DNA from: Bacteroidales bacterium
GTDB taxonomy: Bacteria > Bacteroidota > Bacteroidia > Bacteroidales > ML635J-15
Direction: 5' to 3'
Assembly (NCBI GenBank): GCA_017645925.1
Contig: JAGCNN010000255.1
Span: forward strand, 1 to 50,591
Length of the DNA stretch: 50,591 nt
The translations under genes and the position numbers were made by a program. The notes under the pieces are model-generated. The model was not told the DNA's origin. It searched no databases and saw only the letters and a program-made list of their open reading frames with translations. This document shows, piece by piece, positions 9,431 through 47,691 of the stretch (the stretch's first letter is position 1; the number at the start of each line of letters is the position of its first letter).

Positions 9431-9433
9431 TTC

Positions 9434-33700: not shown

Positions 33701-36700
33701 GGTTCCGCCTGTAACTGTAACCGTTGCAGTTCCTACCGACTGGTCGGTACAAGTTTTGAGTATGTCCTCGTTGCGTATGACAGCAACAAGTTCATCTGGT
33801 TGGGTAATCACCTGCGTAGTTGATACCGTACAGCCGTTGCCATCGCGTACATATATATTATAGGTATAGGACGAGTTGCCATTTGTTGAAACCGGGAAGG
33901 TATATGTTTGGTAGTTGGTGCCAGACGAGTGCTCATAGCTGCTTCCGCCGTTATCGCTGAATTCGTAGTAGTACGGACTTCCAGATGTACCCTCGCCACA
34001 AGGTATGCTTGTGCCTGCACCAGTTACTTCTACCGTGATGGTTCCAGAATCTTCTCCGTTACACTTTACATCGGTATGCGAAACGGAAATTGTCGGATTC
34101 GTATTGGCGACAATGTTTACCGGAGCTGTGACCGTACAGTTGTTGGCATCGGTTACAATTACATTGTAGTCGCCACCTGCGAGCCCATTGATTGTTGCGG
34201 TAGTCTCTCCGTTGTCCCACGAGTAAGTATAGTTAGAAGCGTTTCCGCCATGTGGCGTTGCTGTTGCAATACCAATATTGCCAGTTACACATGAGTGATG
34301 GTCGGCGGTAGCCGTTACTGTAAGCTCGGGATAAATGGTTATTGTGCCTGTTAACGGAGCTTGAGCACATGCATTTCCTGCTGCAGTTGTTGTTACTGCC
34401 CTATAGGTATATGTTGCACCCTCTGTTGGAGCAGTACCAGTTGCGCTTATAGTCATTGTGCCGGCATCGTAGCTCAGACAAGTCGGTGCTGGAGTCGATG
34501 TCCATTCAAAGTTTACACCAGTTGCACCACCGCCGTAGGTAAATATAATATTATTGAAACCACCCGGGAAATCGCTGTAGCACTTTGTCTGGTCCTTTGT
34601 GCCCGAACCCGAAGCTGTGTTTATTGTCGGTACCGGACTGACAGAAAGGCTATAGTTGCTTGTTACAGAACATCCGTTTTCGGCAGCTACTACAACCGAA
34701 TAGGTATAATCGCCAACTGCGGTAGGTGTTACTGTAATTGCATTGAGGTCATCACCAGTTGTCGTTGCAGGCAAACCGGCATCAGCACCCGAAGTGGTTG
34801 ACCACGAATAACTCTCAACATTGATAGTATTTGATGTGCTGAGGTTTACAGAAAGTTCGGTAGCGGGGTATGAGAAGCACTTTGTAAGACCATCGCCACC
34901 AAGTGTATAATCCGGTAGATGGCGGTCGCTAATAGTTACCGATGCTGTAGCTGTACATTCATTAGCATCACTTACTGTTACATTATAGGTACCAACACCA
35001 AGATTTGAAATTGATGCCGTAGTCGAAGATGATGGATCATCCCATGCATATATGTAGTATTGATTGTGTGACGCATCCTCATAAGGAATACCATAGCTTG
35101 CAGTTACAGTTGCAGCACCTACGGTCTGGCCGGTACAAGTTTGCGTAACGTTACTCGGCTCTATTGCTGCTGTTATATGTGCCTGTGTAGGCTGGGTTAT
35201 CGTAACAACATCCCTATCGGTACATCCGTGGCTATCCATTACAACAACATTGTAGCTATTGGCCGGAAGGTTCGAGAATGTAATCTGGGTAAGGTCTCCT
35301 GTAGTAGCATGAGTATAGGTAGAACCATTATCCTTGCTGAACTGGTAGTAATACGGATTTGCAGAAGAGCCATCGCCATAGGGAGTACCGTCTGTTGCCG
35401 AAAGCGTAAATGCACCAGTACTTTCGCCATTACACCGCACATTTGTAACTCCACTATACGACAGAACTGGCGGATCGTAAACCAGAACTTCTACATTATT
35501 CTCAACCAAAGTACACTCCCGACCGTCAGGACGGACATCCTTAACATACACCGTATATGTAGTAGTTTGACTAGGTGTTACCGTATAGTCTCCACTTGTT
35601 GAGAAATGTGCATCATCGCCCCAGCTGTACATTATGGTTCCACCCGACTGCGACTGTGCCGATGCCGTCAATGTAATAGTTGTATTAGGACAAATTGGCC
35701 TATCGGGCACACTGGTAATAGTAAGACCTGTAGGCAGTGGTGCTACATTGAGCACTATAGATTCATTGTCGGCACACTGCAAGGTAGTTCCATCACCCAT
35801 ATCATAGTGTGTGGTTGCAGTTACCGTATAGGTTGTATTTCCTACCGGAGGAGTAACATTGTGCGGATTGGCTTCACCATCGCTCCATATATATTGCTCA
35901 ACCGGCATAGGCGAAGTTGCATTAAGCGGGAACGGCTCGCCTTCGCATATATGCGGGTCGTAACCCGACGATATAGTAATATCAGGCAAGCTGTAGATAG
36001 GAATAGTTTTCTCATTCCAGCATCCACCATGAGCATCATCGGTGGTAAACTTTATGGTTATAGCATCTGGAAGCGCACCTGTAATGGTATAATGTGTTTG
36101 CGAGCCAGAAGGAGGATTAAGTGATGGGCGCATGCTCTCGTCCAAGGTTGACAAGTCTTCTATCTCGGTGCCATCATAATTAACACTCGAAATCGACCAG
36201 GCACCCAAATTCTCGGCAGGGCTTTCTGGTGTCAGACCAAGCTCTATTGTTGAACCCTCGCATATATAGTTGGTTCCATCAAATACAATTTCGGGGATAG
36301 GGGTAACCTCCATAGTAAACGTATTTGATATTGACCTACAGAATTCACTTTCGATATTTGCCTCGTTACCAGCCACAATAAGCCTGTAGTAGTGGTGAGG
36401 CGGAGCAGGGTTGCCGGGTGTTGGGTTTGGTTCGGTTATGGTAATCTCGTTTCCTCCATAACGGCTTTCGTTATTGGTTGAAATCAAACCGTCGCTCGAC
36501 TCACCGCCATCAAACTCAATGGTTTCCCAGTTGATATTATCGTCTGAACGCTGCCAGCCATATACTGGACTGCCGTTAAATACATCATGCTCATCTACAA
36601 GATCCGCCCCCAAAGTAACCTGCGAACCTGTACATATATTGACAGAACTGAATATTTCATCTTCACCAACAATACCAATGGTAACTTCAGGCATACATAC

Positions 36701-39439
36701 CCTTACCTCAATGTCGTCAAGGGCAAAATCATTTCCTTGCCCATGAGGTTGATTGTTCTTAATACCAAAATAAACATCCTCCATTTCTGCAGGCATCTCA
36801 TACACCAACACCACTTGAGTCCAATCGTTTACATCCCACACACAATTGGAATACGGGAACTTGCGTGGTCTAGGAATTTCTCCAGAATGATGATATGCAA
36901 TCCTATTGGCATCTGTGAAATTAGGACTGCTATGCAATTCGAAGGTTAGATTCGGTTTGTAAGTACTAGAATTTCCAGACCCGTTAATATTAGCCATCCA
37001 GAATGAGAATATAAGCTTAACACCATTACAATTGGGCACATGAATTTTCTGACGATAAAAATAAGCTTCTCGATCTAAAGCATCAACCTGTAAAAAATAA
37101 CCCTTGTCCACATTTCCAGGATGGGTATGGTCGTCGAGCGGCACAAATAACTTCCAACACGGACTTCCAAACTTCGGTCTAGCATAACGTCCCTCACTAC
37201 CTATACTACACGGCGTTCCATATTGAGATATCTCATAGTCCATAATATTATATGTGGTTCCTCCTACCGAGAATGTTCCCAGCGATTCTGAGTTCAATAC
37301 TGGATCAGATTCGGAATTTCCACCAAAATCCTCTCTGAATATTACCGTTCCCGTAGAATAGCAATCATCGGGCTTATTCTCGCAGGTAACATCAAACGCG
37401 AACCCATCGCCTGCAATTGTACCATTGGAATAGAAATGTATAGTTATAGCATTGGATTTTGAAACCACATTTATGTCAATTGAAATGAGAGATGGCAGGA
37501 GAGATTCTGGTTGGTCCGGATTAGTAAGCTGATAACCACCTGAGGTTGCCCATGACAAACCATGATTACAACCAGTAGCCTCAGAAGTTGGCTCATATTC
37601 TACAGAATATCCATGTCCGTGATGACCGCCGCCCCACAATACCTCGCCATCGGTACCTGCACCATCAAAAATAGTTATGTAGTCGTGCGCCCAGTCAAAG
37701 GTATATTTTCCACTTATACGTACTATTTTATTTCTATTGGCATCACCAAGGTCGATTACAGCATAACCCGAACTATAGTCAATTGTACCGCCAGTAGAAC
37801 CGCAGTTGTTAGAATATTGACCGTCGGGACCTCCATCATCGTATATCATTTGACCACATATTTCGCTGCCGTAGGTAGCAACACCAGCCTGAGGAACAAA
37901 GTTGAACGAGACACCGCTACATGCAGCAGAAGTTACCGTTGCAGTCCACTCGGCCTCTATTCCGGTAAGGTTGTTATCAAACTTTATGGTAAGGCTGTGT
38001 CCTGTACTCGTGAAATCGGCAGGCGAATCTCCAGCAGCGTATGTAGCTACAGGCGTTGATGACGCATCTGAACCATCATAGATATAAAAATGGTCATCGG
38101 CACCAATGTTGAACGAAGAGAAATGTATTGTAAGCGGTTCGGTTGACGAGAATGTCTTGGTGTAGTATTCCTGGTCAAGAGTTTTGCCTTCTTCGGCAGT
38201 AAAATCAACAGAAGTGCCGCAAGGTACAGCTTCGCCAGGCAAAGTAGCCATACAGTCTATTGCCGACACCGTTGCATCCCAACCTGCACCATTGCCCGCT
38301 TCGTTGCTATATACAGCAACCGTAAGCGTATTACCAGTACTTGTAACCGATGGCGGCAACGTAGTGCCTGTATATCTTCCAACCAACGGAGACGAAATAG
38401 TTGAACCGTCATGTATTTCAATGAAGTCATCATCGGTCATATCAAAGGCGGAGAAACCAATCTGGATACGCGCATAGTTTTGCGACACGAATGTCTGATA
38501 GTAGCTCAAATTGTTGGCATAGTGGGCCACACCATCCGAGAAATCTACAGTTGTAAGACAATTCACCGTAATATCAGGCCACTTTATAAAACAGCCTACA
38601 GACGTTGCACGCGCCATCCATCCCGCACCTTCGCTGCCATCATCGTCGCTCACAAAATGGAAGTACATCGAATTCCCCGAAGATGTAATAACCGAAGGTG
38701 GATTAGAAGCATCGTAAGTATCAATAAGCACCGCATCATAATCATCGGTTGAAGGATTATATACATAATTGTAGGCTTCAAGATAGTCGCCTGTGCCAAG
38801 ATTAAACGAAGTAAAATTCACACGGATATTGGCACCGTCTATAGTGGAATAAGTCTTGGTGAAATTCGAGTTTGCAGCATAATCACCAAAGCCATCGGTA
38901 AACTCGGAACTTTCCTGACAATTCAGATACCTGCTCGGCAACATATCGGGGCAAGCAACACTAACCTTCGCCTTCCATCCCCTATACTTGGTATTACTTG
39001 ACGAACGGTGAACAAAAGTAACCCTACCTGTCGTACTCGTAAAAGTACCGGTTGGTCTTGTTGTACCATAAAGATGTTCAACCCATTCACCAGAACCAGT
39101 AATTGTAGAACCGGATATACTAATTTCACCATCATATATGTTAAGATAATGGTTATTACCCGAACCCGAACCATTACCCGTGGCAGGACCAACGCCGAAG
39201 TTGCCCTCGAAAGTTACCACAATCTGGCTTCCCGGATCACAATAGAACGAGTACCAATAAGTCCAAGTACCAGAATAGTTATTCGCATCGCCTCCTTGGT
39301 CGTAAAAATAGGCATAATCGCCACAATTCAGCTTCGTAGAGCCGTTGGTGTTAGCATTATCAAGCTTTACGGTAACCTGAGCAAATGTGCTAACGGCATA
39401 AAATGCCAAAACCGAGAAAATAACAATAAACTTTTTCAT
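21752..39439 (-). CDS. Giant (5895 aa) T9SS type-B cargo, SprB-like adhesin: signal peptide, about 5 CUB-like domains, a beta-sandwich domain, many SprB/PKD-like repeats, HYR-like repeats and a gliding-motility-associated CTD
   Basis: C-terminus IPNVFTPNGDGVNDTW...IYVFNRWGQ...WDG..GTYLY is a type-B CTD. SprB repeats follow GG..PY.Y.W...L.AG.Y.V.VTD..GC. CUB-like motifs such as DDFIEIHDG..VGRYTG..S.GN.L. The ORF is uninterrupted. Confidence 0.92.
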   Translation of the reverse strand: MKKFIVIFSVLAFYAVSTFAQVTVKLDNANTNGSTKLNCGDYAYFYDQGGDANNYSGTWTYWYSFYCDPGSQIVVTFEGNFGVGPATGNGSGSGNNHYLNIYDGEISISGSTITGSGEWVEHLYGTTRPTGTFTSTTGRVTFVHRSSSNTKYRGWKAKVSVACPDMLPSRYLNCQESSEFTDGFGDYAANSNFTKTYSTIDGANIRVNFTSFNLGTGDYLEAYNYVYNPSTDDYDAVLIDTYDASNPPSVITSSGNSMYFHFVSDDDGSEGAGWMARATSVGCFIKWPDITVNCLTTVDFSDGVAHYANNLSYYQTFVSQNYARIQIGFSAFDMTDDDFIEIHDGSTISSPLVGRYTGTTLPPSVTSTGNTLTVAVYSNEAGNGAGWDATVSAIDCMATLPGEAVPCGTSVDFTAEEGKTLDQEYYTKTFSSTEPLTIHFSSFNIGADDHFYIYDGSDASSTPVATYAAGDSPADFTSTGHSLTIKFDNNLTGIEAEWTATVTSAACSGVSFNFVPQAGVATYGSEICGQMIYDDGGPDGQYSNNCGSTGGTIDYSSGYAVIDLGDANRNKIVRISGKYTFDWAHDYITIFDGAGTDGEVLWGGGHHGHGYSVEYEPTSEATGCNHGLSWATSGGYQLTNPDQPESLLPSLISIDINVVSKSNAITIHFYSNGTIAGDGFAFDVTCENKPDDCYSTGTVIFREDFGGNSESDPVLNSESLGTFSVGGTTYNIMDYEISQYGTPCSIGSEGRYARPKFGSPCWKLFVPLDDHTHPGNVDKGYFLQVDALDREAYFYRQKIHVPNCNGVKLIFSFWMANINGSGNSSTYKPNLTFELHSSPNFTDANRIAYHHSGEIPRPRKFPYSNCVWDVNDWTQVVLVYEMPAEMEDVYFGIKNNQPHGQGNDFALDDIEVRVCMPEVTIGIVGEDEIFSSVNICTGSQVTLGADLVDEHDVFNGSPVYGWQRSDDNINWETIEFDGGESSDGLISTNNESRYGGNEITITEPNPTPGNPAPPHHYYRLIVAGNEANIESEFCRSISNTFTMEVTPIPEIVFDGTNYICEGSTIELGLTPESPAENLGAWSISSVNYDGTEIEDLSTLDESMRPSLNPPSGSQTHYTITGALPDAITIKFTTDDAHGGCWNEKTIPIYSLPDITISSGYDPHICEGEPFPLNATSPMPVEQYIWSDGEANPHNVTPPVGNTTYTVTATTHYDMGDGTTLQCADNESIVLNVAPLPTGLTITSVPDRPICPNTTITLTASAQSQSGGTIMYSWGDDAHFSTSGDYTVTPSQTTTYTVYVKDVRPDGRECTLVENNVEVLVYDPPVLSYSGVTNVRCNGESTGAFTLSATDGTPYGDGSSANPYYYQFSKDNGSTYTHATTGDLTQITFSNLPANSYNVVVMDSHGCTDRDVVTITQPTQAHITAAIEPSNVTQTCTGQTVGAATVTASYGIPYEDASHNQYYIYAWDDPSSSTTASISNLGVGTYNVTVSDANECTATASVTISDRHLPDYTLGGDGLTKCFSYPATELSVNLSTSNTINVESYSWSTTSGADAGLPATTTGDDLNAITVTPTAVGDYTYSVVVAAENGCSVTSNYSLSVSPVPTINTASGSGTKDQTKCYSDFPGGFNNIIFTYGGGATGVNFEWTSTPAPTCLSYDAGTMTISATGTAPTEGATYTYRAVTTTAAGNACAQAPLTGTITIYPELTVTATADHHSCVTGNIGIATATPHGGNASNYTYSWDNGETTATINGLAGGDYNVIVTDANNCTVTAPVNIVANTNPTISVSHTDVKCNGEDSGTITVEVTGAGTSIPCGEGTSGSPYYYEFSDNGGSSYEHSSGTNYQTYTFPVSTNGNSSYTYNIYVRDGNGCTVSTTQVITQPDELVAVIRNEDILKTCTDQSVGTATVTVTGGTQFGTAPDTYYNYAWNTYPTPTWDPNRNTRIITDLPVGSYQVTVSDAQGCTATAWKEITARPVPNINASTTADAVCLSSSTSSFSILNSSNTVDIASHSWSVAPTDGAGMPSNLTTASLEVAPIGISPYEEAVTYVYTDVVTADNGCIVSGTVSLTVNPTVVLTHTSGDLDQTLCFEKTLVPIVFEYSGGASGVTLTWGDPAPASTCLSYAIDNTTHTLTISEGGEPVAGTYRYRVDAVGAVSPCSNPYYEGIIIIRPQLTVTVTGDHQSCVSGNIGVVTAHPAGGKPFGTAPDTYYQYSWNTTPTPRTTQSINELAGGTYNVVVTDANTCTATGSVTIESKTNPSISIDVTNVLCHGFNTGAIQVTVTNHGTNAGTSNPYGEGTTTEPYFYLFSKDGGSNTEQSSGDDYYVHSFPNLLANTYNIYVRDGNDCVATATPHVTEPDTYVTAEITDANTIPTCQGQSVGALTVTADHGTPGTSPNPEYTYSWNTGATTASINELSAGMYTVVVTDGNGCSITTSKEVLPRPVPDFSLDVTGRADKCLYDNETELVVSNGGTGSTYAWSASSTDAGLPAGSDDATVTVTPAVGTHTYTVSITASNGCVVTASVPLTIYPVPTVALSGTVTEATCNGYDDGGFSLVATGGTIYDNGTNPSTPYYYQFSIDGGSNYTTYYSNSNTSVTAQFTDLLAQTYNVVVSDSHECTASVSGGVEVWQPTLVTATPSVVTEDCAGQAIGVATVTPNGGRIGVAPYPEYRYAWNKATNPWDEPRTTQEISGLAAGTYNVTVTDSYGCIGTNAVTIDPRPVPNINVSTTADAVCLSSSTREFSILNNHDVDIASHSWSVAPTTGAGMPSDLTAESLEVTPTGISPYEEPVTYVYTDVITAENGCVVSGTVSLTVNPTAILTHTSGAPSQTLCFDETLTDIVYTYSGGADGATLTWTETAPESTCLSWSVDPSAKTLTITEGTTPVAGTYRYTVQTTGAISPCDNPPLSGEIIIRPQLTVEITGVHQSCVTGNIGTATATPAGGNPGSSLAYTYEWNTSATSATISGLTGGDYSVVVTDGAGCTATSSVTIVEKVNPTIEVTSKNVSCYGADDGKITVLVTTPSTDNPTPYSDGPASQPYYYVFSSDNGATLYDSRGEEQYAQYTFTGLAADAHPVNSHTYNIYVRDGNDCTATEEVNITQPVTLTATIDTDNDVTNSCTGQAVGEATVVAHDGTGPYTYTWNTDPVQSLATATGLAIGTYTVTVEDDHHCIATAQVSIGNRPVPSITAETNTVVCESELPLTLTVVNAGNEVDIASYSWTVDPTENAGITSGTNGATLNVRPTNYTTHRYTQHIVAENGCEVEGYVELLVHPNPTVTLGDVTQPVCPSAGSIEIEATLTYTNPIATPAPLYTYTWTNDGSFAVASTEPSISDATTVTSTTATVSVPNDYCSHDYTLKLQVEDANHCQSELAEKVITVADETVPTISLIDPSYASVDAVPIDGCKFTFPDLTTLVSTSDACSRGDLVITQSETAGAVITARPSQDVVVTVSDECGHTDNLTITVNVPETLSASITTPTNNTCPIASGSDYEFGSLVSGATAPYTYSWTTATAVDGHPDQATIASDGRCHTYNITLSVNDDYGCTAESSVTFAAVDDENPQITCPASPISVSTDSHVNTADVTVPLPTGMSDNCTIDYYINDHTNTANASGTYPLGQTDVTYTIYDMCGNDETCPFSVIVTDDEPPCIGCDPDDPDPDNPDPFNPNHGISCESITDNTGEVRVVTDPGQNTYTHSGNDWNIDANDNVGIVAGYPYYALSGDTDVVDGENTTLNGQHFNVGTTTVTWYVSDGIHVVDCSFDVIVTDDQPPCIGCDPDPNDPNVNGISCESFTEVISGQNQITVSTSPAYVDTYTHSGTAWDITATDNVAVVSRTCVLSVYDDVLGDYVVIGSGIEIPSEPGFETLDGVTFSLGATLVTWYVSDGTFIVPCSFIVNVEDNELPCIGCDPTDPDPYNPENPTGISCTTIGNQVRDCTEGLEYYVHHNNETAPTDPADPTLTSNWTANWNVDADDNTGTDGLRVFYTLEGHTSEVTGDNTTLEGQIFNIGLTTVIWHAIDRFDNETTCMFTVSVADHEAPCIGCDPDPTDEDPGVSCNDIAPNTEHTVSVSTSEHLSYYHHNNDSWDVTATDNVEVMSVTYELDNVNCAVPSVLVSPNTTLNGQNFNIGTTKVVWTAVDYANNISTCEFYVTVTDDENPCIGCDPDDPNPFDPSTGISCASIVSAMGGDVSELSFEVGTDTDANTYQHLDYLWDVDANDNVAIVAGDPHYTLSGATTVVEGDNTTLNGQHFNVGETTVTWHVSDGVNTEVTCSFTITVVDDQPPCIGCDPDPSNPDPFDPSTGISCASIVSAMGGDLTELSFEVGTDDDVNTYLHTGEDWDVDANDNVTIVAGDPHYTLSGATTIVEGDNTTLNGQHFNVGTTTVTWHVSDGVNTEVTCSFTITVVDDQPPCIGCDPDPNNPDPFNPNSGISCASIVTAMNGDLTELSFEVGTDEHSDTYLHTGIDWDVDANDNVAIVAGDPHYTLEGATTVVEGANTTLNGQHFNVGETTVIWHVSDGVNQEVTCSFTVTVVDDEDPCIGCDPNDPNNPFDDDDPDGRDCESIVAFADGENMTINVGTSDFLNPSEYVNYYVHYNSGENGNWDITANDNVGIASVVCNLSGATTATGLTTLNGQQFNIGRTVVTWVVTDVSTPPNTSECTFVVIVSDDDPPIIGCDPDDPDNPFDPTAGISCSSITSGDDIVTVYTPDGLTYYQHQGTQWDVTANDNSGIPSIAYSLSGATTSVDGSPITLNGQRFNLGQTTVTWVATDMYGLTDTCTFVVNVLDIIAPGISCPPEIQNITCINDVPPAYQTYEQFVTAGGSAYDPNGIDESSFVLLSQESDGNTCPEVITRTYQIDDIPGNHAICTQTITIMDNVAPVITGLAPTINVTSGTNCRYPLPDFTEVVRAMASDNCTTRDNLTIVQSLEAGTANMISTNTDVTITVTDACGNTAQIVGHAVVPQTLTHNVSFTEIMCAGQTSTVTITGVGGTVPYTGVGERVEYAGAHSYVISDANGCTSNVNITISEPPQLEIPSISVVHVACFGESTGSASVSVTGGTPGYTYSWNTVPVQETQNATNLVAGRYTVTVTDTKGCSATSAATIEGQSALLVASIESVLPVACYGEATGSAMVSVRGGSPVYSYHWSTSPEQNTETATSLLAGEYMVTVSDSHGCTATATAVIEGQSSPLTTSFAAGNITDVACYGQSTGSARVDVEGGSPDYRYTWSTSPVQNSQTAVNLSAGSYVVTVTDSHECTSTAAVTISGQTYELTASFAEGSSVDVPCFGETTGSAIVTVSGGSPDYTYAWNTIPQQTTQAVSNLAAGRYTVTVTDAHGCTATSSVAINGQGTPLSPNVLPTNVTNVACNGMSTGSATVTVSGGTPQYQYSWNTSPVQNTQTIVNVPAGTYVVTITDDHGCTATANATISQPPLLEVSVTASDATCGSVGGTVTANVFGGAGQYVYSWVNTLGQTYASPRLSSVAPSTYNLTVTDGNGCSATTSAQVSAIGSLSARIDVVALPGCGTNISSGRLQAVAESGISPFSYIWNTGATTMIASNLQPGSYNVTITDNWGCSANATTSIEQLNTLEISVTNTGASCFGYNDASATVVALRGEPPYTYEWNNGASSPMLQNILAGSYTITVTDANMCTRVETIEIPQPDRLTLLSDVKQISCFAKSDGSIALTAEGGNQPYTFNVTLNESRFTGNYMANLPAGVYTMEVVDAKGCQSENTIQLIEPDEFLSSYNVTMPSCSGNNDGTIEISATGGTKPYMYGWDSYYTDVPLLTGLRQGQYTISVVDANKCTYQVASIMLTDMAGDCITIPNVFTPNGDGVNDTWIIDNIEMFPDATIYVFNRWGQMLYKATGNDEPWDGSYRGHHVPAGTYLYIVDLYQKTEAYKGTVTVLY
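25864..27001 (-). repeat. Three near-identical tandem ~381-bp HYR-like coding units
   Basis: The anchor GAACGAGCAGG recurs at about 25880, 26261 and 26642 (period 381 nt = 127 aa). Confidence 0.9.
30946..33526 (-). repeat. Long-range internal duplication in the giant gene (about 30946-31295 vs 33175-33526)
   Basis: Shared nucleotide blocks such as GTCGGGTTGACGGTAAGTGAAACTGTTCCCGATAC at an offset of about 2229 nt. Confidence 0.85.
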
Positions 39440-40018: not shown

Positions 40019-40421
40019 TGGTGGAGCTGCCGGGAATCGAACCCGGGTCCAAACAAGAAACGAGGGTGATTTCTACATGCTTATTTTGCCTTTGATTGTC
40101 GGGGTAAGCACGGGGGTAAACGCCCAAACTCATCCTTATCTCCTAAAATCTTGCCGCCCCACAGGAGAATAGAAGCGACCAGTCCGGTATTTTTTGCCAC
40201 CGCTTTACCGAAACGGAACCAGACCGTCCAATCGAGCGATGTTTCGTTCCAGCACCTTGTGCCGGAATTAAGGTAAGCCTACTAATCTTCGACTACGCAG
40301 CGAAAGCATAATTATTTTCTGCGCCAATTATTGTTCTGCAAGACACTTTTACGGGATAACTTGCATTGCCCGGCATGCTTACACGATCATTTACCTTGCT
40401 GTCAAAACCAAGGTCAGCCCC
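40019..40421 (-). ncRNA. ssrA: tmRNA
   Basis: 5' end GGGGCTGACCTTGGTTTTGACAGC and 3' end GGACCCGGGTTCGATTCCCGGCAGCTCCACCA (T-arm, acceptor stem, CCA). Internal tag ORF reads (G)AENNYAFAA*. Confidence 0.97.
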
Positions 40422-40447: not shown

Positions 40448-40536
40448 GACAATTCACAAACACGAAAATTGTCTTTTTTAACACATCAGATAATATTATA
40501 CAAAAATAAATAATTAACAATTCATAATGGATAATT

Positions 40537-40662
40537 TGTAGATACGCACCATGGCGCGTATCTACAGATTATCAAATCATTCAAATATATTTATTCCTAT
40601 TGTACGGACGCAAAATTTTGCATCGCACAAAATACAGAAAACGTTGCACGCAACGTTTCTAC
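40537..40662. repeat. Cluster of three GTAG-type REP-like palindromes
   Basis: TGTAGATACGCACCATGGCGCGTATCTACA (40537-40566), TGTACGGACGCAAAATTTTGCATCGCACA (40601-40629), and on the minus strand GTAGAAACGTTGCGTGCAACGTTTTCT (40636-40662). Confidence 0.8.
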
Positions 40663-43600
40663 ATTATTTCCAATTTCTTCATCAATCTGCCACCAGCACA
40701 ATCTACGATAACAACATACAATCCTGCCTGCATTCCTTCCAACGGCAATGAAACCCTGTCGGAATCGGCATTCATCTCCAGAACCTTACGGCCAAGCACA
40801 TCGTACAATGCAACCAATTTCATGCCTGCACAAGCAACCTCCACCCTATCCGATGCGGGATTAGGATAAATTTCCAACTGCGACAAAACCTCATCGGCAA
40901 CACCAGTAAGGCAATATGTTTCCGACCTGACATCACCGTCATTGCAATGGGCAACAACCTCGAAACAGTCGCCTGCCGAATACGAACCAGCAAGCTCGTA
41001 TGTATTATTATCTGTATCGGCAAGCAAAACACCGTTTTTATACAAACTGTAAGTTTCTGCATTTCCAGTCCATGTCAAATTTGGGGATTCAGAACCAATA
41101 CCTACGAACGAAATCTGCGGAACTACGCATCCACCAACCTCAATTCTAATATCATCAATACCTATTCCGAAACCATAGTTGAGGTCGGCATAGAAGGCAA
41201 TATAGTAGTTTTGCGACAAATTTGGAAGCTCAATTTCCGCAGACGACCACGATTCGTATGCCCTATCATACCTAGTTAGCAACTGCCACTCGCCTGCATC
41301 GGTATTCTTATAGTACACCGACAAAACATCGTTGTCGCCATCCCATTCCTTCTGCACATGGCGGAACGACAAGGTTGCCGAAACTCCTTCCTCAAAAGCA
41401 AATTTTGCCGACTCAAGCATATTAGACATATCAGTCCACGAATAATTCTTTATAAACAAGAACTTATCGCCGTTCTGCGAAATATAATCGTATGGGTCGG
41501 ACTCTACAACATTCCACAATTCAGCAGTCTCTATGTTTGGAACCTGCGACCAGCACTCGGGAATCTCACCGCTTGCAAAATCCTCGACAAACGGGAAATC
41601 GCGAATTGCAGCATTGCACGACCAGAACCTAATATAAGCCGTATCAACGACCGCCATATTTGTATTTGCCATTTGCACTACAACAGGAATCACATCGCCA
41701 TACTGCACATCGGCATCGGCATACATCGGAAATTCGCGTGTAATGATAGCATCGCGGCTGACATTTCCGTAAAACCTAGTAAAGTCATCGATGTGCAAAT
41801 GTTCATTCGTACTTATCAAAGCCACCTCAACTGGTTCTGTAAGAGTACCGCTGTTTGTAACACTTACCGACAACGAGAAGTTTCCATCGGGCATAGCATC
41901 GCCTACAACCGAATAGCTTTGCATCTCGATTTTGCCCCTTATGACAGACACTTCCAAATATGCCACATAAGCCTCGTTGTTTACAGTATCGTCAATTGTA
42001 AGCGTAAAAGGCAGCTCATAACCATCATCAAGAGTGCGCGATGGCAAAAACGAAAATACAGGTCCTAACTCAACAGTCTCGCCCACTACAATCGGAGAAC
42101 AAGAAGCTGAATTTTCAAGTATTTCCACATTCGAATCACTGCTACTCAAAGCCATAGGCAGCCAAGCATCGGAATTGACCTGTCCTACATTCTTCAACTG
42201 CAATGTCAGCGAATAGCCACTCATCATATCTTCGAGAGCGTAAGGCACCACATCGGGCGAATATCCGACAAGCGAAATATACGCACCTTCGGGAGCAACT
42301 ACAGGAATATACTCGATATGAGGAAAGCGTTGCTGGCGTGTAACCACAAGCAGAACGCTATCGGAAGTAGCAGTTGCAACAAGCGGAACATTCACCATCC
42401 CATTTGTACCGACAAGACCAGTACCTATTATAGTATTGCCATCGGTAAGCGCCACATACGAACCGGGGTTGGCGGAAACCAAGAAGGAAGAACTGCCGTT
42501 AACAATGTTAGCCTCGTGAGAAACAACATTGGCACTCGGAATCGAATAATAAGGCATAACCGAGCCATCGCCAAGCACATTGTAGGCTTCCCAGTAATAT
42601 TTCACCATACCGCCAGAATTTGTAACGGCAAGATTTCCGGCATACATTATCGACGAAACGGTATTGAACATATCTTCGTTAAACATCATATCGAATGCAC
42701 CAGTCTCCGTTTCCGACAACTGCGGGGTACGCCCAAACACGCTCGTTGCGCCCAATGCCCAGTAGTAGTCAGGCCCCCAGTAAGTCACCGGCGACGAACC
42801 GATGTAGGCAAAAGCGCCCTTCTTCTGGCTACGAATCATCTTCTCGCCATAGCATGGTTCCGAATAGCCGAACTTTCCGCTAAGGCAGCAGTTGCCGATT
42901 GCGAGGAAATACTTGTCGGCATTTGTAAGACCGTCAATGTCATCGTTTGTGAAACGAGGTCCGCACCACTCGGTCTCGCCACCGTGGGCAGTGTAATGTG
43001 CATAGCCAACGCCAGTGCTGAGGTTGTCGTAGCAACCATCGTATGAATCAAGATATGCATATACATTATTATATCCATGAGCTGCATTGAAATAGTTCTG
43101 CGTAGCATAGTTTATGGTAGGCTGTCCGATGTAAGTATTATTGGAGTCGTCGGAACCGGCAATAAGCAAGGCATTGCCAAGGTACGACGGGTCGGGCATA
43201 GTGTATTTTTCGTACATAAGCGTCTTTCCAACGACAATGTTCAGTTCATCAGGCGATGCCACCGAAATACGGCTACAGTACATATCGGGGAAATAGTCGC
43301 CATCGACCGAAGCATAGTAGAGGTCGGTCTGCTGCTCGCTAGCTTCGCCAACAGCACTTGCGGGAATCCTATCGACATCGCCGACAAGCACCAGGAAAAC
43401 AGGAGCGTTGCCAGCCTCTGCCCCTTGCGCATAGCGTGCCGACACCCAACTGCTTATATTTTCGGATGTAGCACTAGCACTGCCAACATAGTCAACATCG
43501 ACGTAGAACCCTTTCTGGGTTTTCCACTCAAGCCAAGGCTGAAGCTGCTCTGTAAAATCCTCGTGCGCAACTACCAGCATCTTCACTGGAGTATGGTAAA

Positions 43601-44297
43601 GATCAGCATACGAATCAAAAATATCCTTGTTGACAAGCGAAGAATACGTGGAAGCGAAGAACGGCGAATATCCGCTACGGATTTCCCTCTCGGTCTTGGC
43701 ATAGTCAACCGACTCGAACACAACTTCCAATTCAATATCGTTGTAAACATAGAGAATGTTTGTTACCGGATTGTACGACAGCGGAGAAACGCAGAGTTCG
43801 CCTAATTGTACGCCGCGCATTGTTCCAACCGGAGAAATCCAAGCCAAACCATTTTCGCCGCCGATGAATGCATCGGTTTCGTAGGCTTTGGCATTGTAGT
43901 CAAACTGCGGATTTTTCTCCGACTTGCTTATCGGATGCTGCTGCGGAACTATATTCTTGCCATACTGCGACAAGTCGAACTCGCGAAGTGTGAACTTCTT
44001 TACAACAACCTTGTAGTTGCCGCATTGAGGAATAGCCATAGGCTTACGCATTACAGGCAGGGAGGGGAAGCCGATTTTTCCAGACGGATAAGTCCCGTCA
44101 AGCGAAACCGACAGGAAATCACCAGCATTTGACATATTCAACTTGTCGTAGGAAAGCCTGATTTCAAATCCCGACATAGATACATTTTCAATGGAAAATT
44201 CGTGCTTGGATCCAAGATTCAAACCATCAGAACCATCATTTGCAAGCATCACAAAAGACAATGCAATGCCTATCAGAAGAAAAGCAAATCGTTTCAT
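40659..44297 (-). CDS. Lys-gingipain (Kgp)-like C25 cysteine protease: signal, propeptide, catalytic domain, Ig-like domains, adhesin/MAM-like domain, T9SS type-A CTD
   Basis: YTAHG and IGNCC catalytic motifs. Kgp-like strings DLYY..VDGDYFP, KGAFAYIGSSP.TYWGPDYYW, YYWEAYNVLGDGSVMPY. C-terminus IYPNPAS...YDVLGR...GLYVV...KKLEIM. Start at ATG 44297 (MKRFAF). Confidence 0.9.
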   Translation of the reverse strand: MKRFAFLLIGIALSFVMLANDGSDGLNLGSKHEFSIENVSMSGFEIRLSYDKLNMSNAGDFLSVSLDGTYPSGKIGFPSLPVMRKPMAIPQCGNYKVVVKKFTLREFDLSQYGKNIVPQQHPISKSEKNPQFDYNAKAYETDAFIGGENGLAWISPVGTMRGVQLGELCVSPLSYNPVTNILYVYNDIELEVVFESVDYAKTEREIRSGYSPFFASTYSSLVNKDIFDSYADLYHTPVKMLVVAHEDFTEQLQPWLEWKTQKGFYVDVDYVGSASATSENISSWVSARYAQGAEAGNAPVFLVLVGDVDRIPASAVGEASEQQTDLYYASVDGDYFPDMYCSRISVASPDELNIVVGKTLMYEKYTMPDPSYLGNALLIAGSDDSNNTYIGQPTINYATQNYFNAAHGYNNVYAYLDSYDGCYDNLSTGVGYAHYTAHGGETEWCGPRFTNDDIDGLTNADKYFLAIGNCCLSGKFGYSEPCYGEKMIRSQKKGAFAYIGSSPVTYWGPDYYWALGATSVFGRTPQLSETETGAFDMMFNEDMFNTVSSIMYAGNLAVTNSGGMVKYYWEAYNVLGDGSVMPYYSIPSANVVSHEANIVNGSSSFLVSANPGSYVALTDGNTIIGTGLVGTNGMVNVPLVATATSDSVLLVVTRQQRFPHIEYIPVVAPEGAYISLVGYSPDVVPYALEDMMSGYSLTLQLKNVGQVNSDAWLPMALSSSDSNVEILENSASCSPIVVGETVELGPVFSFLPSRTLDDGYELPFTLTIDDTVNNEAYVAYLEVSVIRGKIEMQSYSVVGDAMPDGNFSLSVSVTNSGTLTEPVEVALISTNEHLHIDDFTRFYGNVSRDAIITREFPMYADADVQYGDVIPVVVQMANTNMAVVDTAYIRFWSCNAAIRDFPFVEDFASGEIPECWSQVPNIETAELWNVVESDPYDYISQNGDKFLFIKNYSWTDMSNMLESAKFAFEEGVSATLSFRHVQKEWDGDNDVLSVYYKNTDAGEWQLLTRYDRAYESWSSAEIELPNLSQNYYIAFYADLNYGFGIGIDDIRIEVGGCVVPQISFVGIGSESPNLTWTGNAETYSLYKNGVLLADTDNNTYELAGSYSAGDCFEVVAHCNDGDVRSETYCLTGVADEVLSQLEIYPNPASDRVEVACAGMKLVALYDVLGRKVLEMNADSDRVSLPLEGMQAGLYVVIVDCAGGRLMKKLEIM

Positions 44298-44313
44298 AAA
44301 CAATAATTTTATG

Positions 44314-44420: not shown

Positions 44421-45548
44421 ATGAAGAAACTTTTAGTTTTTAGTCTGTTTGCCACACTTTTCATTGGAGTATCCTATTCGCAGGAAATTAAGGACAGCAG
44501 CCAATACGATTCTGGAATGGACCAGATTATCGTTCCGACACAAATCCTGACCAGCCCGACAGACGGAGACACTATCAACACACTCGTTACAGCCGAAGGT
44601 CAGGAAGCCAACATTGCCTACAACAGTGGCGTATTATTATGCAACGAAGGAAGTTTTAGCGAAGCAATAGGAGAATTCTCCAGAGCCATAGGCATAAACC
44701 CCGAACTAGCTCAGGCCTACTACGGACGTGGAACCTGCTACGTACAACAGAAAAAATACACCGAGGCAATAGCCGACCTTACGCAATATACCTCGCGCAA
44801 AAGAGACAGCTATGCCACATACCTGATTGGCTACTGCTACTTCCACAAATCGGACATGGAAAATGCAACAAAGGCGTTCCAGAACGCTATCGAACAGGGA
44901 TGTGCCAATGCCGACCTGTTCTACCACCTTGGTGTAATAAACTTCAATGACGCCAAGTACGACAAGGCTATAGAATATTACACAAAAGCCATCGACATCG
45001 ACAACAAACACGCATTCTCGTACAACGACAGAGGCTCATCTTACAGAATGCAAGGCAAGTACGACAAGGCTATCACCGACTATCGTAGGGCAGCGGAACT
45101 GAACACAAAGATGGATATTTTCAAGGCAAATCTCGGCAGCGCATATAGGCTCAACAAAGACTACGAGAATGCAGTAGCAACATACGACATGGTTCTGCAA
45201 GAAAATCCTAAGAACTATATCACACTCAACAACAAGGGCATAGCTCTCTACGAAATGAAAGACTACGACAATGCCATTGAAATGTTCAACGAATGTCTCA
45301 CGCAAAACAAAGATTATGCATACGCATACAACAATCTGGGTCTTTGCTATTACAGGAAAAAAGAATACAACCTTGCAATTGAAGCTTTCACAAAAGCAAT
45401 AGTCTTAAATCCAAAATACGGCGAAGCATACGTTAACCGTGGCGCCGCAAAGGAAATGATAAGAGACGCAGCAGGTGCTTGCAACGACTGGAACGCTGCC
45501 AAAGCATTAGGTATCGATGTAAACACTTCCGAATCATTTTGCGACTGA
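44421..45548 (+). CDS. Secreted tetratricopeptide-repeat protein
   Basis: Signal peptide and about 9 TPRs (AY..RG....G.Y..AI.DY..A), ending in ACNDWNAAKALG. Confidence 0.9.
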   Translation: MKKLLVFSLFATLFIGVSYSQEIKDSSQYDSGMDQIIVPTQILTSPTDGDTINTLVTAEGQEANIAYNSGVLLCNEGSFSEAIGEFSRAIGINPELAQAYYGRGTCYVQQKKYTEAIADLTQYTSRKRDSYATYLIGYCYFHKSDMENATKAFQNAIEQGCANADLFYHLGVINFNDAKYDKAIEYYTKAIDIDNKHAFSYNDRGSSYRMQGKYDKAITDYRRAAELNTKMDIFKANLGSAYRLNKDYENAVATYDMVLQENPKNYITLNNKGIALYEMKDYDNAIEMFNECLTQNKDYAYAYNNLGLCYYRKKEYNLAIEAFTKAIVLNPKYGEAYVNRGAAKEMIRDAAGACNDWNAAKALGIDVNTSESFCD

Positions 45549-45579
45549 AAGTAATAAACCTCTATAAAACAAACAGAAG

Positions 45580-47691
45580 ATGAAAAGGACTTTTATAAAT
45601 ATATTAACTGCAACATTGGCACTTCTACTTGTTGCCAGCATTTCATACTCGCAGATAAACATCGAAATAAACAAATCCGAATTTAAAACCGCCGAGAAAA
45701 ACGGCTATAAGGAAGCTCTGACCTCAATCCGTATTGGAGACGAATACTTTGCAAGCAACTCGGTGGGCGGATACAGCAAAGCTCTGGACGAATACCTTTC
45801 TGCAAGCACGTACAATAACAACAACGCCGAACTGAACTACAAAATCGGAATATGCTACATATATTCTACACAAAAGAACAAGGCTATATCCTATCTGGAA
45901 AAGGCATATAAGCTCAACAAGGAAGTGTGCTTCGACATAAAATATTTAATCGGACGTGCTTACCAAATTACAAACCGCTTCGAAGAAGCAATAAAGCACT
46001 ATACAGACTTCAAGAATACCGACTACGAAGCACAAGCCAAAAAACTGAAAATAGACAAGAACAAATACGATGTTGATGCAAGGATTAGCGAATGTAGAAA
46101 CGCCGAAAAATTCAACGAAACTCCAACTAGAGTTTTTATTGACAACCTTGGGGCAAACATCAACTCGCGCTACGCCGACTATGGTCCAGTTATCTCTACC
46201 GATGAATCGATGATGATATTCACATCGCGCCGCGAAGGTTCCACCGGTGGTGAAATGGACTACGACAACCAATATTTTGAAGACCTGTACATTTCATACA
46301 ACGAAGGCGACAACAAATGGGCTCCCGCTATGAACATGAAGTCAATCAACACCGATAACCACGATGCTTCGGTAGGTCTGTCGCCCGATGGCTCTATCCT
46401 ATATACTTTCAACGGTACCCCGGACGGCAACCTCTACGAAAGTAAACTGAAAGGTGAAAACTGGAGTAAACCAAAGGCTCTCGGCAAAACCATTAATACC
46501 AAATACCACGAAACCTCAATATCAATTTCGTCAGATGGAAAAACCCTTTACTTTGTCAGCGAAAGGCCGAAAGACGAATTTGGAACACCATCAAAAGGTG
46601 GAAAGGATATTTTCGTCAGCGAAAAAACAACAAAGGGCGAATGGGGTCCTGCAAGAAACATAGGTGCTCCTATTAATACCGAATTTGACGAAGAAGGTAT
46701 TTTCATTCACCCCGACAACAGAACAATGTATTTCAGTTCGAAAAGAGAAGGCACAATAGGAGGCTACGATATATTCTACAGCGAACTCGATGACGATGGC
46801 AACTGGAGCGAACCCGTAAACATGGGTATTCCTATCAATACACCTGAAGACGATGTATTTTTCATCGTTACCGGTAACGGCCGCTACGCATACATTTCAA
46901 GCGACAGGGAAGGCAGCATAGGCATGCAGGACATCTGGAGAATAACATTCCTCGCTCCCGAAAAACCAATGCTCACAGGTACAGAAGACAACCTAATAGC
47001 TTGCTCCAACTCTTCAATACAGACAATTGTAAAGCAAGAAATTGTAGAGGTAAAGAAAGTCAGACTTACAATTATGAAAGGTACTATCACCGATGCCGAA
47101 ACAGGAGATCCTCTCGAATCGTCAATCGAAATAGTTGACCTCGAAAAGGACGAGATTTATGCAACATTATCATCAAACGCCTCAACTGGAAAATACCTGA
47201 TTAGCTTGCCATCTGGAAAGAACTACGGTATCACAGCAAGAACCGAAGGCTACCTGTTCCACAGTGAAAACGTAAACGTACCGGCAACATCATCGTATCA
47301 GGAAATCATAAAGGACATAAAGCTTAAGGCTATCAATGTTGGTGCTACAATAATCTTGTCAAACATCTTCTTCGACTTCAACAAATATACCCTGCGAGAC
47401 ATATCCAAGGCAGAACTTGACAACCTTGTAAGACTTCTTACTGTTGATTACCCGAAGATGGTAATTGAAATCGGAGGTCATACCGATAATGTCGGCTCGC
47501 TTGAATCCAACACCAGACTTTCGGCAAACAGAGCAAAAGCCGTTGTTGACTACCTGATTTCACACGGTGTAGAAAAAGAACGCCTGTCGTATAAGGGATA
47601 TGCTTACCAGCAGCCTATCGACACCAACGATACCGAAGAAGGCCGTCAAAAGAACAGACGTGTTGAATTCAAAGTTATCAGCTTAAAGTAA
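45580..47691 (+). CDS. PorE-like protein: TPR, PD40 propeller, carboxypeptidase-regulatory-like domain and OmpA_C peptidoglycan-binding domain
   Basis: Repeated INT..E..P.(S/H).DG..(L/M)YF.S PD40 units, followed by IEIGGHTD..GS...N..LS..RA..V and NRRVEF. Confidence 0.88.
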   Translation: MKRTFINILTATLALLLVASISYSQINIEINKSEFKTAEKNGYKEALTSIRIGDEYFASNSVGGYSKALDEYLSASTYNNNNAELNYKIGICYIYSTQKNKAISYLEKAYKLNKEVCFDIKYLIGRAYQITNRFEEAIKHYTDFKNTDYEAQAKKLKIDKNKYDVDARISECRNAEKFNETPTRVFIDNLGANINSRYADYGPVISTDESMMIFTSRREGSTGGEMDYDNQYFEDLYISYNEGDNKWAPAMNMKSINTDNHDASVGLSPDGSILYTFNGTPDGNLYESKLKGENWSKPKALGKTINTKYHETSISISSDGKTLYFVSERPKDEFGTPSKGGKDIFVSEKTTKGEWGPARNIGAPINTEFDEEGIFIHPDNRTMYFSSKREGTIGGYDIFYSELDDDGNWSEPVNMGIPINTPEDDVFFIVTGNGRYAYISSDREGSIGMQDIWRITFLAPEKPMLTGTEDNLIACSNSSIQTIVKQEIVEVKKVRLTIMKGTITDAETGDPLESSIEIVDLEKDEIYATLSSNASTGKYLISLPSGKNYGITARTEGYLFHSENVNVPATSSYQEIIKDIKLKAINVGATIILSNIFFDFNKYTLRDISKAELDNLVRLLTVDYPKMVIEIGGHTDNVGSLESNTRLSANRAKAVVDYLISHGVEKERLSYKGYAYQQPIDTNDTEEGRQKNRRVEFKVISLK

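What the first reader, a model, noticed from the sequence alone, without database searches (positions are those of the whole stretch)
40659..44297. Lys-gingipain (Kgp) homologue outside Porphyromonas with a Lys at its own maturation site
Seen: the catalytic domain follows P. gingivalis Kgp motif by motif as I recall it. It has His in YTAHG (about 42984), the CC pair in IGNCC (about 42885-42890), the S1 Asp in YWGPDYYW (about 42768), the third-residue Asp in IAGSD, and the propeptide inhibitory Lys in PISKS. Kgp matures at NR/DVY and depends on Arg-gingipains, but here the junction is NK/DIF (about 43626). The Kgp haemagglutinin array is replaced by Ig-like domains plus one adhesin-like domain. 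Inference: a self-activating, Lys-specific, T9SS-secreted gingipain in a probably non-pathogenic lineage, relevant to the origin of this virulence factor.
Basis: partly seen in the sequence, partly recalled or inferred. Interest (0 to 1): 0.7.

Follow-up and report, generated by a model that had tools for sequence, protein, structure and literature searches.

The report
Rumen bacterium's lysine-type gingipain protease
A cattle-gut bacterium carries a close relative of the gum-disease protease Kgp that likely cuts proteins after lysine and is likely switched on by a cut at a lysine; such relatives are common in gut Bacteroidales, so this gene is not unique, but it suggests that the enzyme predates its role in gum disease.

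Summary
The 1212-aa ORF (44297-40659, minus strand) is a gingipain whose catalytic domain is 54% identical to P. gingivalis Kgp. It keeps the catalytic triad, 6 of 7 S1-pocket residues and the propeptide Lys, and groups with Kgp (100/99). It ends in a T9SS signal and has one adhesin-like domain instead of Kgp's array. K224 is the only basic residue near the junction, so a Lys-specific enzyme likely matures it.

The trait is not special. Kgp-like domains occur in 215 of 401 genomes of the order. Lys is the commonest junction residue in this family (85 of 112 Kgp-type proteins), and 10 of 33 orthologues have Arg. The genome also encodes two more Kgp-type and two Rgp-type enzymes, so self-activation is unproven. 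The protein is not shown to be Kgp's sister.

The more novel lead: 33 of 50 Arg-type gingipains in the family also have a Lys junction. This suggests that Kgp-type enzymes mature Rgp-type enzymes there, the reverse of P. gingivalis. The scan held no earlier look-alike.

The parts
40659..44297 (-). CDS of the Kgp-type gingipain zymogen, 1212 aa (P0001); an in-frame TTG lies at 44303
   Evidence: orthologues are 1190-1216 aa
44238..44297 (-). Likely Sec signal peptide, aa 1 to about 20
   Evidence: read by eye from the sequence (basic start, hydrophobic core, Ala); no predictor was run
43626..44237 (-). Inhibitory propeptide, aa about 21-224
   Evidence: Pfam Propeptide_C25 aa 59-197; 5mun E 5e-33; TM 0.86 to 5mun
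43923..43925 (-). Lys125, the propeptide inhibitory-loop Lys (Kgp K129; K110 in propeptide numbering)
   Evidence: K in 33 of 33 orthologues and R in 31 of 31 Rgp-type proteins; role in Kgp from PMC3677877 passages
43623..43628 (-). Predicted maturation site K224/D225, aligned to Kgp R228/D229
   Evidence: only basic residue between R207 and K239; always basic in 33 orthologues, K 23 and R 10
42528..43625 (-). C25 catalytic domain, aa 225 to about 590
   Evidence: Pfam Peptidase_C25 E 5e-54; 54% identical to Kgp 229-603; Foldseek 4rbm E 1.8e-60, TM 0.90 by target length
43149..43151 (-). Asp383, third catalytic residue (Kgp D388)
   Evidence: triad from PMC6426963 results section
42984..42986 (-). 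His438, catalytic (Kgp H444)
42885..42890 (-). Cys470-Cys471 (Kgp C476 and nucleophile C477)
42768..42779 (-). W507-G508-P509-D510: S1 lid Trp and S1 Asp (Kgp W513, D516); Pro509 replaces Kgp E515 in 1 of 33 orthologues, this protein only
42306..42539 (-). IgSF domain following the catalytic domain, aa 587-664
   Evidence: Pfam Peptidase_C25_C
41628..42278 (-). Two predicted Ig-like beta-sandwich domains, aa about 674-890
   Evidence: AlphaFold model; the second matches Ig-like domains at Z about 12; the first was barely tested
41133..41600 (-). Single cleaved-adhesin/MAM-type jelly-roll domain, aa about 900-1055
   Evidence: 4itc (Kgp K1) Z 16.4, tied with MAM domains; BLASTP to Kgp 1160-1339, 22% identity, E 2e-6; Pfam MAM below cut-off
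40926..41117 (-). Small predicted beta domain, aa about 1061-1124
   Evidence: not searched on its own
40671..40871 (-). T9SS type A C-terminal sorting domain, aa 1143-1209
   Evidence: PF18962 and TIGR04183, both over cut-off
40638..40659 (-). Terminator-like hairpin directly behind the stop codon
   Evidence: consensus match only (2 found, shuffles give 5.4)

Best explanation
This gene encodes a Kgp-clade gingipain zymogen with a T9SS signal that likely cuts after lysine and is likely matured by a trans cut at K224 made by a Lys-specific gingipain, either another copy of itself or one of two sister Kgp-type enzymes in the same genome. Proposed course: (1) Sec export and folding with propeptide Lys125 plugging the S1 pocket (inferred from Kgp). 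(2) T9SS export and CTD removal, perhaps by the PorU2-type sortase encoded in the window (inferred). (3) Cuts at K125 and K224 free a catalytic domain starting at D225; no Arg lies near the junction, so the genome's Rgp-type enzymes could not make this cut (sequence shown, cleavage inferred). (4) The surface enzyme digests protein to Lys-ended peptides for nutrition in the ruminant foregut, with one adhesin-like domain for substrate or surface binding (inferred). The Lys junction is the commonest state in the family and not a peculiarity of this gene (shown).
For: Catalytic triad and 6 of 7 S1 residues named for Kgp in PMC6426963 (D516, N475, T442, W513, C476, Y517) are identical; the seventh, A451, varies among homologues. 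Propeptide Lys in 33 of 33 orthologues against Arg in 31 of 31 Rgp-type proteins. Clade with Kgp at 100/99. The junction column is basic in 33 of 33 orthologues and is the only one of 36 K/R positions examined that is always basic yet mixes K and R freely (23/10; the next is 1/32), as expected of a cleavage site. K224 is the only basic residue from 208 to 238 and sits just after a short loop between two helices in the model. SprA and GldM/PorM are over cut-off in the genome. Lys is at the junction in 85 of 112 Kgp-type proteins of the family.
Against: No activity or N-terminus was measured. Arg replaces the junction Lys in 10 of 33 orthologues, including one 89% identical over the catalytic region (P0015), so Lys itself is not required. 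At least 8 K/R changes fall on the tree among 34 labelled rows. Arg junctions concentrate in a GC-richer subclade (GC3 0.47 against 0.28), so drift contributes. A review says PorU takes part in propeptide removal in P. gingivalis (PMC10202324, passage). Pro509 next to the S1 Asp is unique to this protein and could impair the pocket. Several Kgp-type homologues in other families lack a basic residue at the aligned position.
Confidence: 0.62

Rival explanations
1. The junction only needs to be loose and basic. Activation starts elsewhere (the K125 loop, upstream Arg204/Arg207 cut by Rgp-type enzymes, or the sortase), and K versus R at 224 reflects drift and base composition with no meaning for which enzyme activates which.
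For: K and R exchange repeatedly. Arg junctions follow higher GC within the genus. All 15 genomes with an orthologue also have an Rgp-type C156 match, one of them partial. Some homologues have no basic residue at the junction. PorU involvement is reported for P. gingivalis.
Against: The column is never non-basic in 33 orthologues. Genus g3 genomes with GC3 up to 0.44 keep K in every paralogue examined, and this protein keeps K at GC3 0.49 while its paralogues have R.
Confidence: 0.25
2. It is a Kgp-derived enzyme with weakened or shifted specificity, or a mainly adhesive surface protein, because Cys445 and Pro509 alter the S1 pocket.
For: P509 occurs in 1 of 33 orthologues and 0 of 129 other Kgp-like proteins; C445 replaces A451, which lines S1 in Kgp.
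Against: All polar S1 contacts and the triad are intact. Position 451 is highly variable in homologues (S, A, G, Y, H, Q), and C is the majority state in orthologues (25 of 33). Pro occurs at about this position in 15 of 31 Rgp-type proteins, where the alignment is gapped.
Confidence: 0.08
3. The lineage is the direct donor or sister of Porphyromonas Kgp, so this gene stands for its immediate ancestor.
For: Same starred clade; same linker length and an adhesin-like domain related to Kgp's; a sister relation is not rejected (p-AU 0.165). Most Porphyromonas species lack gingipains (PMC4700951, passages).
Against: The best tree puts Kgp among 21 other homologues, apart from this protein's group (91/86, unstarred). 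P0030 and P0037 are closer to Kgp, at 61%.
Confidence: 0.12

Closest known systems
Lys-gingipain Kgp of Porphyromonas gingivalis (family C25; PDB 4RBM, 4TKX, 6I9A, 5MUN)
   Same: Propeptide, catalytic domain and IgSF, 46% identical over 651 columns and 54% in the catalytic domain; triad, S1 residues, propeptide Lys, T9SS CTD; same clade.
   Different: Lys instead of Arg at the maturation site; one adhesin-like domain and two Ig-like domains instead of 3-5 haemagglutinin-adhesin domains; no DUF2436 hit; 1212 aa against about 1725 aa; A451 to C and E515 to P; host is an uncultured ruminant-gut Bacteroidales with five gingipain-type genes.
Arg-gingipains RgpA/RgpB of P. gingivalis (PDB 1CVR, 4IEF)
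   Same: Same fold and zymogen design (TM 0.80).
   Different: 22% identity; this protein has the Kgp S1 set and a propeptide Lys. The genome's C156 and C129 genes are the Rgp-like ones (E 2e-93 and 2e-51 to RgpB).
PorU sortase (C25 family)
   Same: C25-type domain and T9SS association.
   Different: No PorU or PorU2 NCBIfam match for this protein; the PorU2-type gene lies elsewhere in the window (9430-4490).
Uncharacterised database homologues annotated 'C25 family cysteine peptidase' or 'gingipain K' (for example MDR2085444.1)
   Same: Kgp-type signature; this one also has a Lys junction (P0029/L064).
   Different: Automatic annotation only; no functional study of them was found in my searches.

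Membership tests
Peptidase family C25 (gingipains) | Peptidase_C25 domain with propeptide and IgSF domain | tested here: met
   PF01364, PF08126 and PF03785 all over cut-off; fold match
Peptidase family C25 (gingipains) | His/Cys catalytic pair of the caspase-like fold | tested here: met
   H438 and C471 align to Kgp H444 and C477
Kgp-type (Lys) gingipain, catalytic unit | Triad C477/H444/D388 and S1 residues D516, N475, T442, W513, C476, Y517, A451 | tested here: met
   Triad and 6 of 7 S1 residues identical; A451 is C, a variable position
Kgp-type (Lys) gingipain, catalytic unit | Inhibitory Lys in the propeptide loop | tested here: met
   K125 aligns to Kgp K129
Kgp-type (Lys) gingipain, catalytic unit | Groups with Kgp to the exclusion of Rgp-type enzymes | tested here: met
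   34-row clade at 100/99 in a 56-row tree rooted on 7 Rgp-like proteins; P. gingivalis RgpB itself was not in the tree
Kgp-type (Lys) gingipain, catalytic unit | Hydrolyses Lys-Xaa bonds | not testable with these tools
   needs an enzyme assay
P. gingivalis Kgp in the strict sense (virulence protease-adhesin) | Array of 3-5 haemagglutinin-adhesin domains | tested here: not met
   One adhesin-like domain; no PF07675 or PF10365 hit; not filed under this name
P. gingivalis Kgp in the strict sense (virulence protease-adhesin) | Arg228/Asp229 maturation site served by Rgp | tested here: not met
   K224/D225, with no Arg from 208 to 238
T9SS type A cargo | C-terminal sorting domain, and a T9SS in the genome | tested here: met
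   SprA and GldM over cut-off; canonical PorU not found over cut-off in the 75% complete genome
Arg-gingipain (Rgp) | Propeptide Arg and Rgp-type active-site motifs | tested here: not met
   Lys at the propeptide site and GNCC instead of VAC
Self-activating zymogen | Matures without another protease | not testable with these tools
   The sequence allows it; sister Kgp-type enzymes could equally make the cut

The most novel reading that the evidence does not exclude
Gut and rumen Bacteroidales carry complete Lys-plus-Arg gingipain systems whose activation hierarchy is the reverse of P. gingivalis. Kgp-type enzymes would be the master maturases that activate themselves and the Arg-specific enzymes, because 33 of 50 Rgp-type proteins of this family, and 12 of 27 from other families, have Lys at the position of the RgpB maturation Arg while keeping Arg-type signatures. 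Tandem Kgp-Rgp gene pairs in at least 32 genomes of other families would be the older arrangement, and the Rgp dependence of Porphyromonas Kgp a later rewiring of a commensal protein-foraging system.
Probability: 0.35. Interest if true: 0.65.

Novelty: new variant of a known kind. Interest (0 to 1): 0.42.

Why it matters
Two comparative papers I read in passages treat Kgp as confined to P. gingivalis within Porphyromonas (PMC4700951, PMC10394638). Finding 50-60% identical Kgp-type enzymes, with Rgp partners, across gut Bacteroidales recasts gingipains as a widespread protein-foraging system that one pathogen has elaborated with a haemagglutinin array. It supplies natural variants for a question a review calls not well understood (PMC5445135, section on gingipains): which protease activates which gingipain. 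It also names candidate enzymes for rumen protein breakdown and possible commensal off-targets of Kgp inhibitors (both inferred). This single gene is one example among hundreds, which caps its own interest.

Tried and rejected
1. 'No Rgp in the genome, hence self-activation': rejected. C156 and C129 are RgpB-like, and 54 of 57 family genomes match C156.
2. 'The Lys junction is unique to this protein': rejected.
3. Assembly artefact: rejected.
4. Transcription: RNA-library contigs of two studies cover parts of the gene at depth 2-5, against 600 or more for the neighbouring tmRNA. Contigs cannot separate this from DNA background, so expression is not shown.
5. Foldseek on the whole C-terminal model gave only generic multi-Ig matches. 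The domain call comes from the wider search, which barely tested the first Ig-like domain and the small beta domain.
6. The promoter scan found no more sites than shuffles.
7. The search of the 50%-cluster protein library never ran because the queue was full, so breadth outside the order rests on single hits such as a Cloacimonadota locus.
8. The primary papers on Kgp structure and zymogen activation (de Diego 2014, Pomowski 2017, Veillard 2013 and 2019, Guo 2010) were not held. They may already describe Rgp-independent Kgp processing.
9. Literature searches listed 16, 3, 3 and 2 papers. I read passages of five: PMC10394638, 10.1101/2021.07.07.447795, PMC4700951, PMC10266427 and PMC11776324. 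None described Kgp orthologues in rumen bacteria; PMC10266427 mentions transcribed gingipain genes in unclassified cockroach-gut Bacteroidales. No supplements were read.
10. Earlier scan notes held no look-alike.
11. No complex prediction was run, since a propeptide-enzyme pair would pass by likeness to solved structures.
Full report
OBSERVATION. The window holds an ORF at 44297-40659 (minus strand) of 1212 aa. Pfam gives Propeptide_C25 (59-197), Peptidase_C25 (240-581), Peptidase_C25_C (587-664), a sub-threshold MAM match (940-1057) and a T9SS sorting domain (1143-1209). Against solved structures it matches Kgp at E 3e-143, the Kgp propeptide at 5e-33 and RgpB at 3e-30. Identity to P. gingivalis Kgp (P0095) is 46% over 651 columns and 54% over the catalytic domain. 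The zymogen model (pLDDT 84.6, pTM 0.83) matches 4rbm with TM 0.90 by target length; Kgp was among the alignment rows, so this is not independent. A contig from another study spans 40500-43842 without gaps, and RNA-library contigs cross the junction unchanged.

SPECIFICITY. PMC6426963 (I read the abstract, introduction, results and conclusions) names the Kgp triad C477/H444/D388 and the S1 residues D516, N475, T442, W513, C476, Y517 and A451. The protein keeps the triad and six of the seven; A451 is Cys, a position that varies widely among homologues. The propeptide loop residue modelled into the Kgp pocket (K110 in PMC3677877, passages; K129 in full-length numbering) is K125 here. It is Lys in 33 of 33 orthologues and 128 of 129 other Kgp-like proteins (one gap), but Arg in 31 of 31 Rgp-like ones. 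Lys specificity is therefore a strong prediction, not a measurement. One oddity is Pro509 for Kgp E515, seen in 1 of 33 orthologues.

C-TERMINUS. The model of aa 669-1212 shows two Ig-like domains, a jelly roll, a small beta domain and the CTD. The jelly roll matches the Kgp K1 cleaved adhesin at Z 16.4, tied with MAM domains, and aligns weakly by sequence to Kgp 1160-1339 (E 2e-6). So one adhesin-type domain replaces the array. The genome has SprA and GldM over cut-off, and a PorU2/PorV2 pair lies in the window. Canonical PorU was not found over cut-off in this 75% complete assembly.

GENOME CONTEXT. Six C25 genes are present: this one, two more Kgp-type (C177, C180), two RgpB-like (C156, E 2e-93; C129, E 2e-51) and PorU2. 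The lineage therefore does not lack Rgp. The neighbours are a tmRNA, a 5895-aa adhesin-like protein and a divergent TPR/PorE-like pair; I did not test whether this neighbourhood is conserved. The eight closest titled loci (74-87% identical) carry rumen, reticulum, omasum, red-deer or RUG isolate names (reading RUG as rumen is recalled). Runs holding the DNA are gut or bovine gut metagenomes. Harmlessness is inferred from habitat.

DISTRIBUTION. All 57 of 57 family genomes have a match at E 1e-20 or better, and 15 have an orthologue at 60% identity or more. All 15 also match the Rgp-type C156, one only partly. In a sample drawn evenly across the order, 215 of 401 genomes match the catalytic domain at E 1e-40 or better. 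The 25 best loci outside the family, from 12 families, all carry the nine-residue Lys-type signature; the remaining matches were not inspected. The protein search scored 2484 relatives among 7997 candidates, and one is already auto-named 'gingipain K'.

PHYLOGENY. In a 56-row IQ-TREE tree (LG+G4, propeptide plus catalytic region, rooted on 7 Rgp-like proteins; rows thinned from 193 non-redundant sequences plus 8 added), this protein and Kgp fall in a 34-row clade at 100/99 (a 67-row quick tree agrees). Its own group of 11 rows is sister to 23 rows that contain Kgp (91/86, unstarred). A forced sister relation with Kgp is not rejected (p-AU 0.165). P0030 and P0037 are closer to Kgp (61%) than this protein is (54.5%). 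It is a Kgp-clade enzyme but not demonstrably Kgp's nearest relative.

THE JUNCTION. Here K224 is the only basic residue between R207 and K239. In 33 non-redundant but related orthologues the column is always basic, K 23 and R 10. It is the only one of 36 K/R positions examined with that pattern. This supports a real cleavage site that either enzyme type can serve. In this protein only a Lys-specific enzyme could serve it, and three candidates exist, itself included.

FAMILY PATTERN. Across the family I fetched 100 further regions. Of 112 Kgp-type proteins, 85 have K and 27 have R at the junction, called as the nearest basic residue at least 7 residues before the first catalytic strand. Not every listed match was fetched. 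Of 50 C156-type Rgp-like proteins, 33 have K and 17 have R directly before the conserved mature start that aligns with RgpB's N-terminus. All keep the propeptide Arg and the Asp aligned to RgpB's S1 Asp, apart from two truncated rows (the role of that Asp is recalled). Among 27 Rgp-type loci of other families: K 12, R 9, D 3, Q 1, unparsed 2. An Arg-specific enzyme could not cut its own Lys junction, which points to cross-activation by Kgp-type enzymes. Two cautions apply. Kin are not independent, with at least 8 changes among 34 labelled Kgp-type rows. And Arg junctions cluster in a GC-richer subclade (GC3 0.47 against 0.28), although genus g3 keeps Lys at GC3 up to 0.44.

MECHANISM AND RIVALS. 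Best reading (0.62): a T9SS-exported, Lys-specific gingipain matured at K224 by a Lys-specific gingipain in trans, serving protein nutrition. I put strict self-sufficiency at about even odds within that reading. Rivals: the junction is merely basic and activation starts elsewhere, including by the sortase as reported for P. gingivalis (PMC10202324, passage) (0.25); altered or weak activity from P509/C445 (0.08). On the separate question of origin, direct sister or donor of Kgp gets 0.12.

KNOWN VERSUS NEW. It is a member of family C25 and works like Kgp. It is not filed as P. gingivalis Kgp in the strict sense, because the haemagglutinin array and the Arg site are absent. Passages of PMC4700951 and PMC10394638 restrict Kgp to P. 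gingivalis among Porphyromonas. My searches surfaced no description of rumen Kgp orthologues or of Lys-junction Rgp enzymes. The library lacks most subscription papers and the key primary papers, and no supplements were read.

VERDICT. A real, well-supported Kgp-type protease, but one of hundreds; self-activation is plausible and unproven. The broader lead, commensal Kgp+Rgp systems with a possibly reversed activation order, is more interesting than the gene itself. Interest 0.42.

Noticed in passing
loci L102-L117, L120-L137 (Rgp-type genes of the same family): Arg-type gingipains with Lys at the position of the RgpB maturation Arg in 33 of 50 family proteins; suggests maturation by Kgp-type enzymes.
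   Followed up: partly
genomes of other families in the order, for example G279:C17, G157:C62, G077:C133: Kgp-type and Rgp-type catalytic domains lie on one strand under 5 kb apart in at least 32 genomes, Kgp first in 28 (from rows listed; 102 of 251 genomes had an Rgp-type match). In the own genome the five gingipain-type genes are on five contigs.
   Followed up: partly
G000 contigs C177, C180, C156, C129 (L005, L001, L003, L006): Four further gingipain-type genes. C177, C180 and C156 have Arg junctions; C129 has no clearly aligned junction residue.
   Followed up: partly
G058 and G194 (L067, L068): Kgp-type enzymes with an Arg junction. No Rgp-type match at E 1e-60 was found with this query in G058, and the family tally was 0 of 3; how they mature is unexplained.
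   Followed up: no
window 4490-10540 (minus strand): PorU2/PorV2 gene pair over NCBIfam cut-off, while canonical PorU was not found over cut-off in the 75% complete genome.
   Followed up: partly
window 21752-39439 (minus strand): 5895-aa protein with CUB, SprB and HYR repeats and a type B T9SS signal; likely a giant adhesin.
   Followed up: partly
window 40019-40421 (minus strand): tmRNA gene just downstream of the protease, very deeply covered in three RNA libraries.
   Followed up: partly
window 44421-47691 (plus strand): Divergently transcribed TPR protein and a PorE-like TPR/PD40/OmpA protein, below the PorE cut-off.
   Followed up: no
window 42771-42773: Pro509 beside the S1 Asp is unique to this protein among 162 Kgp-like sequences aligned; no variant was listed there in run X7, whose contig covers it (table cut).
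   Followed up: partly
L116 (G004) and L165 (G035): One Rgp-type and one Kgp-type gene in relatives contain an in-frame stop.
   Followed up: no
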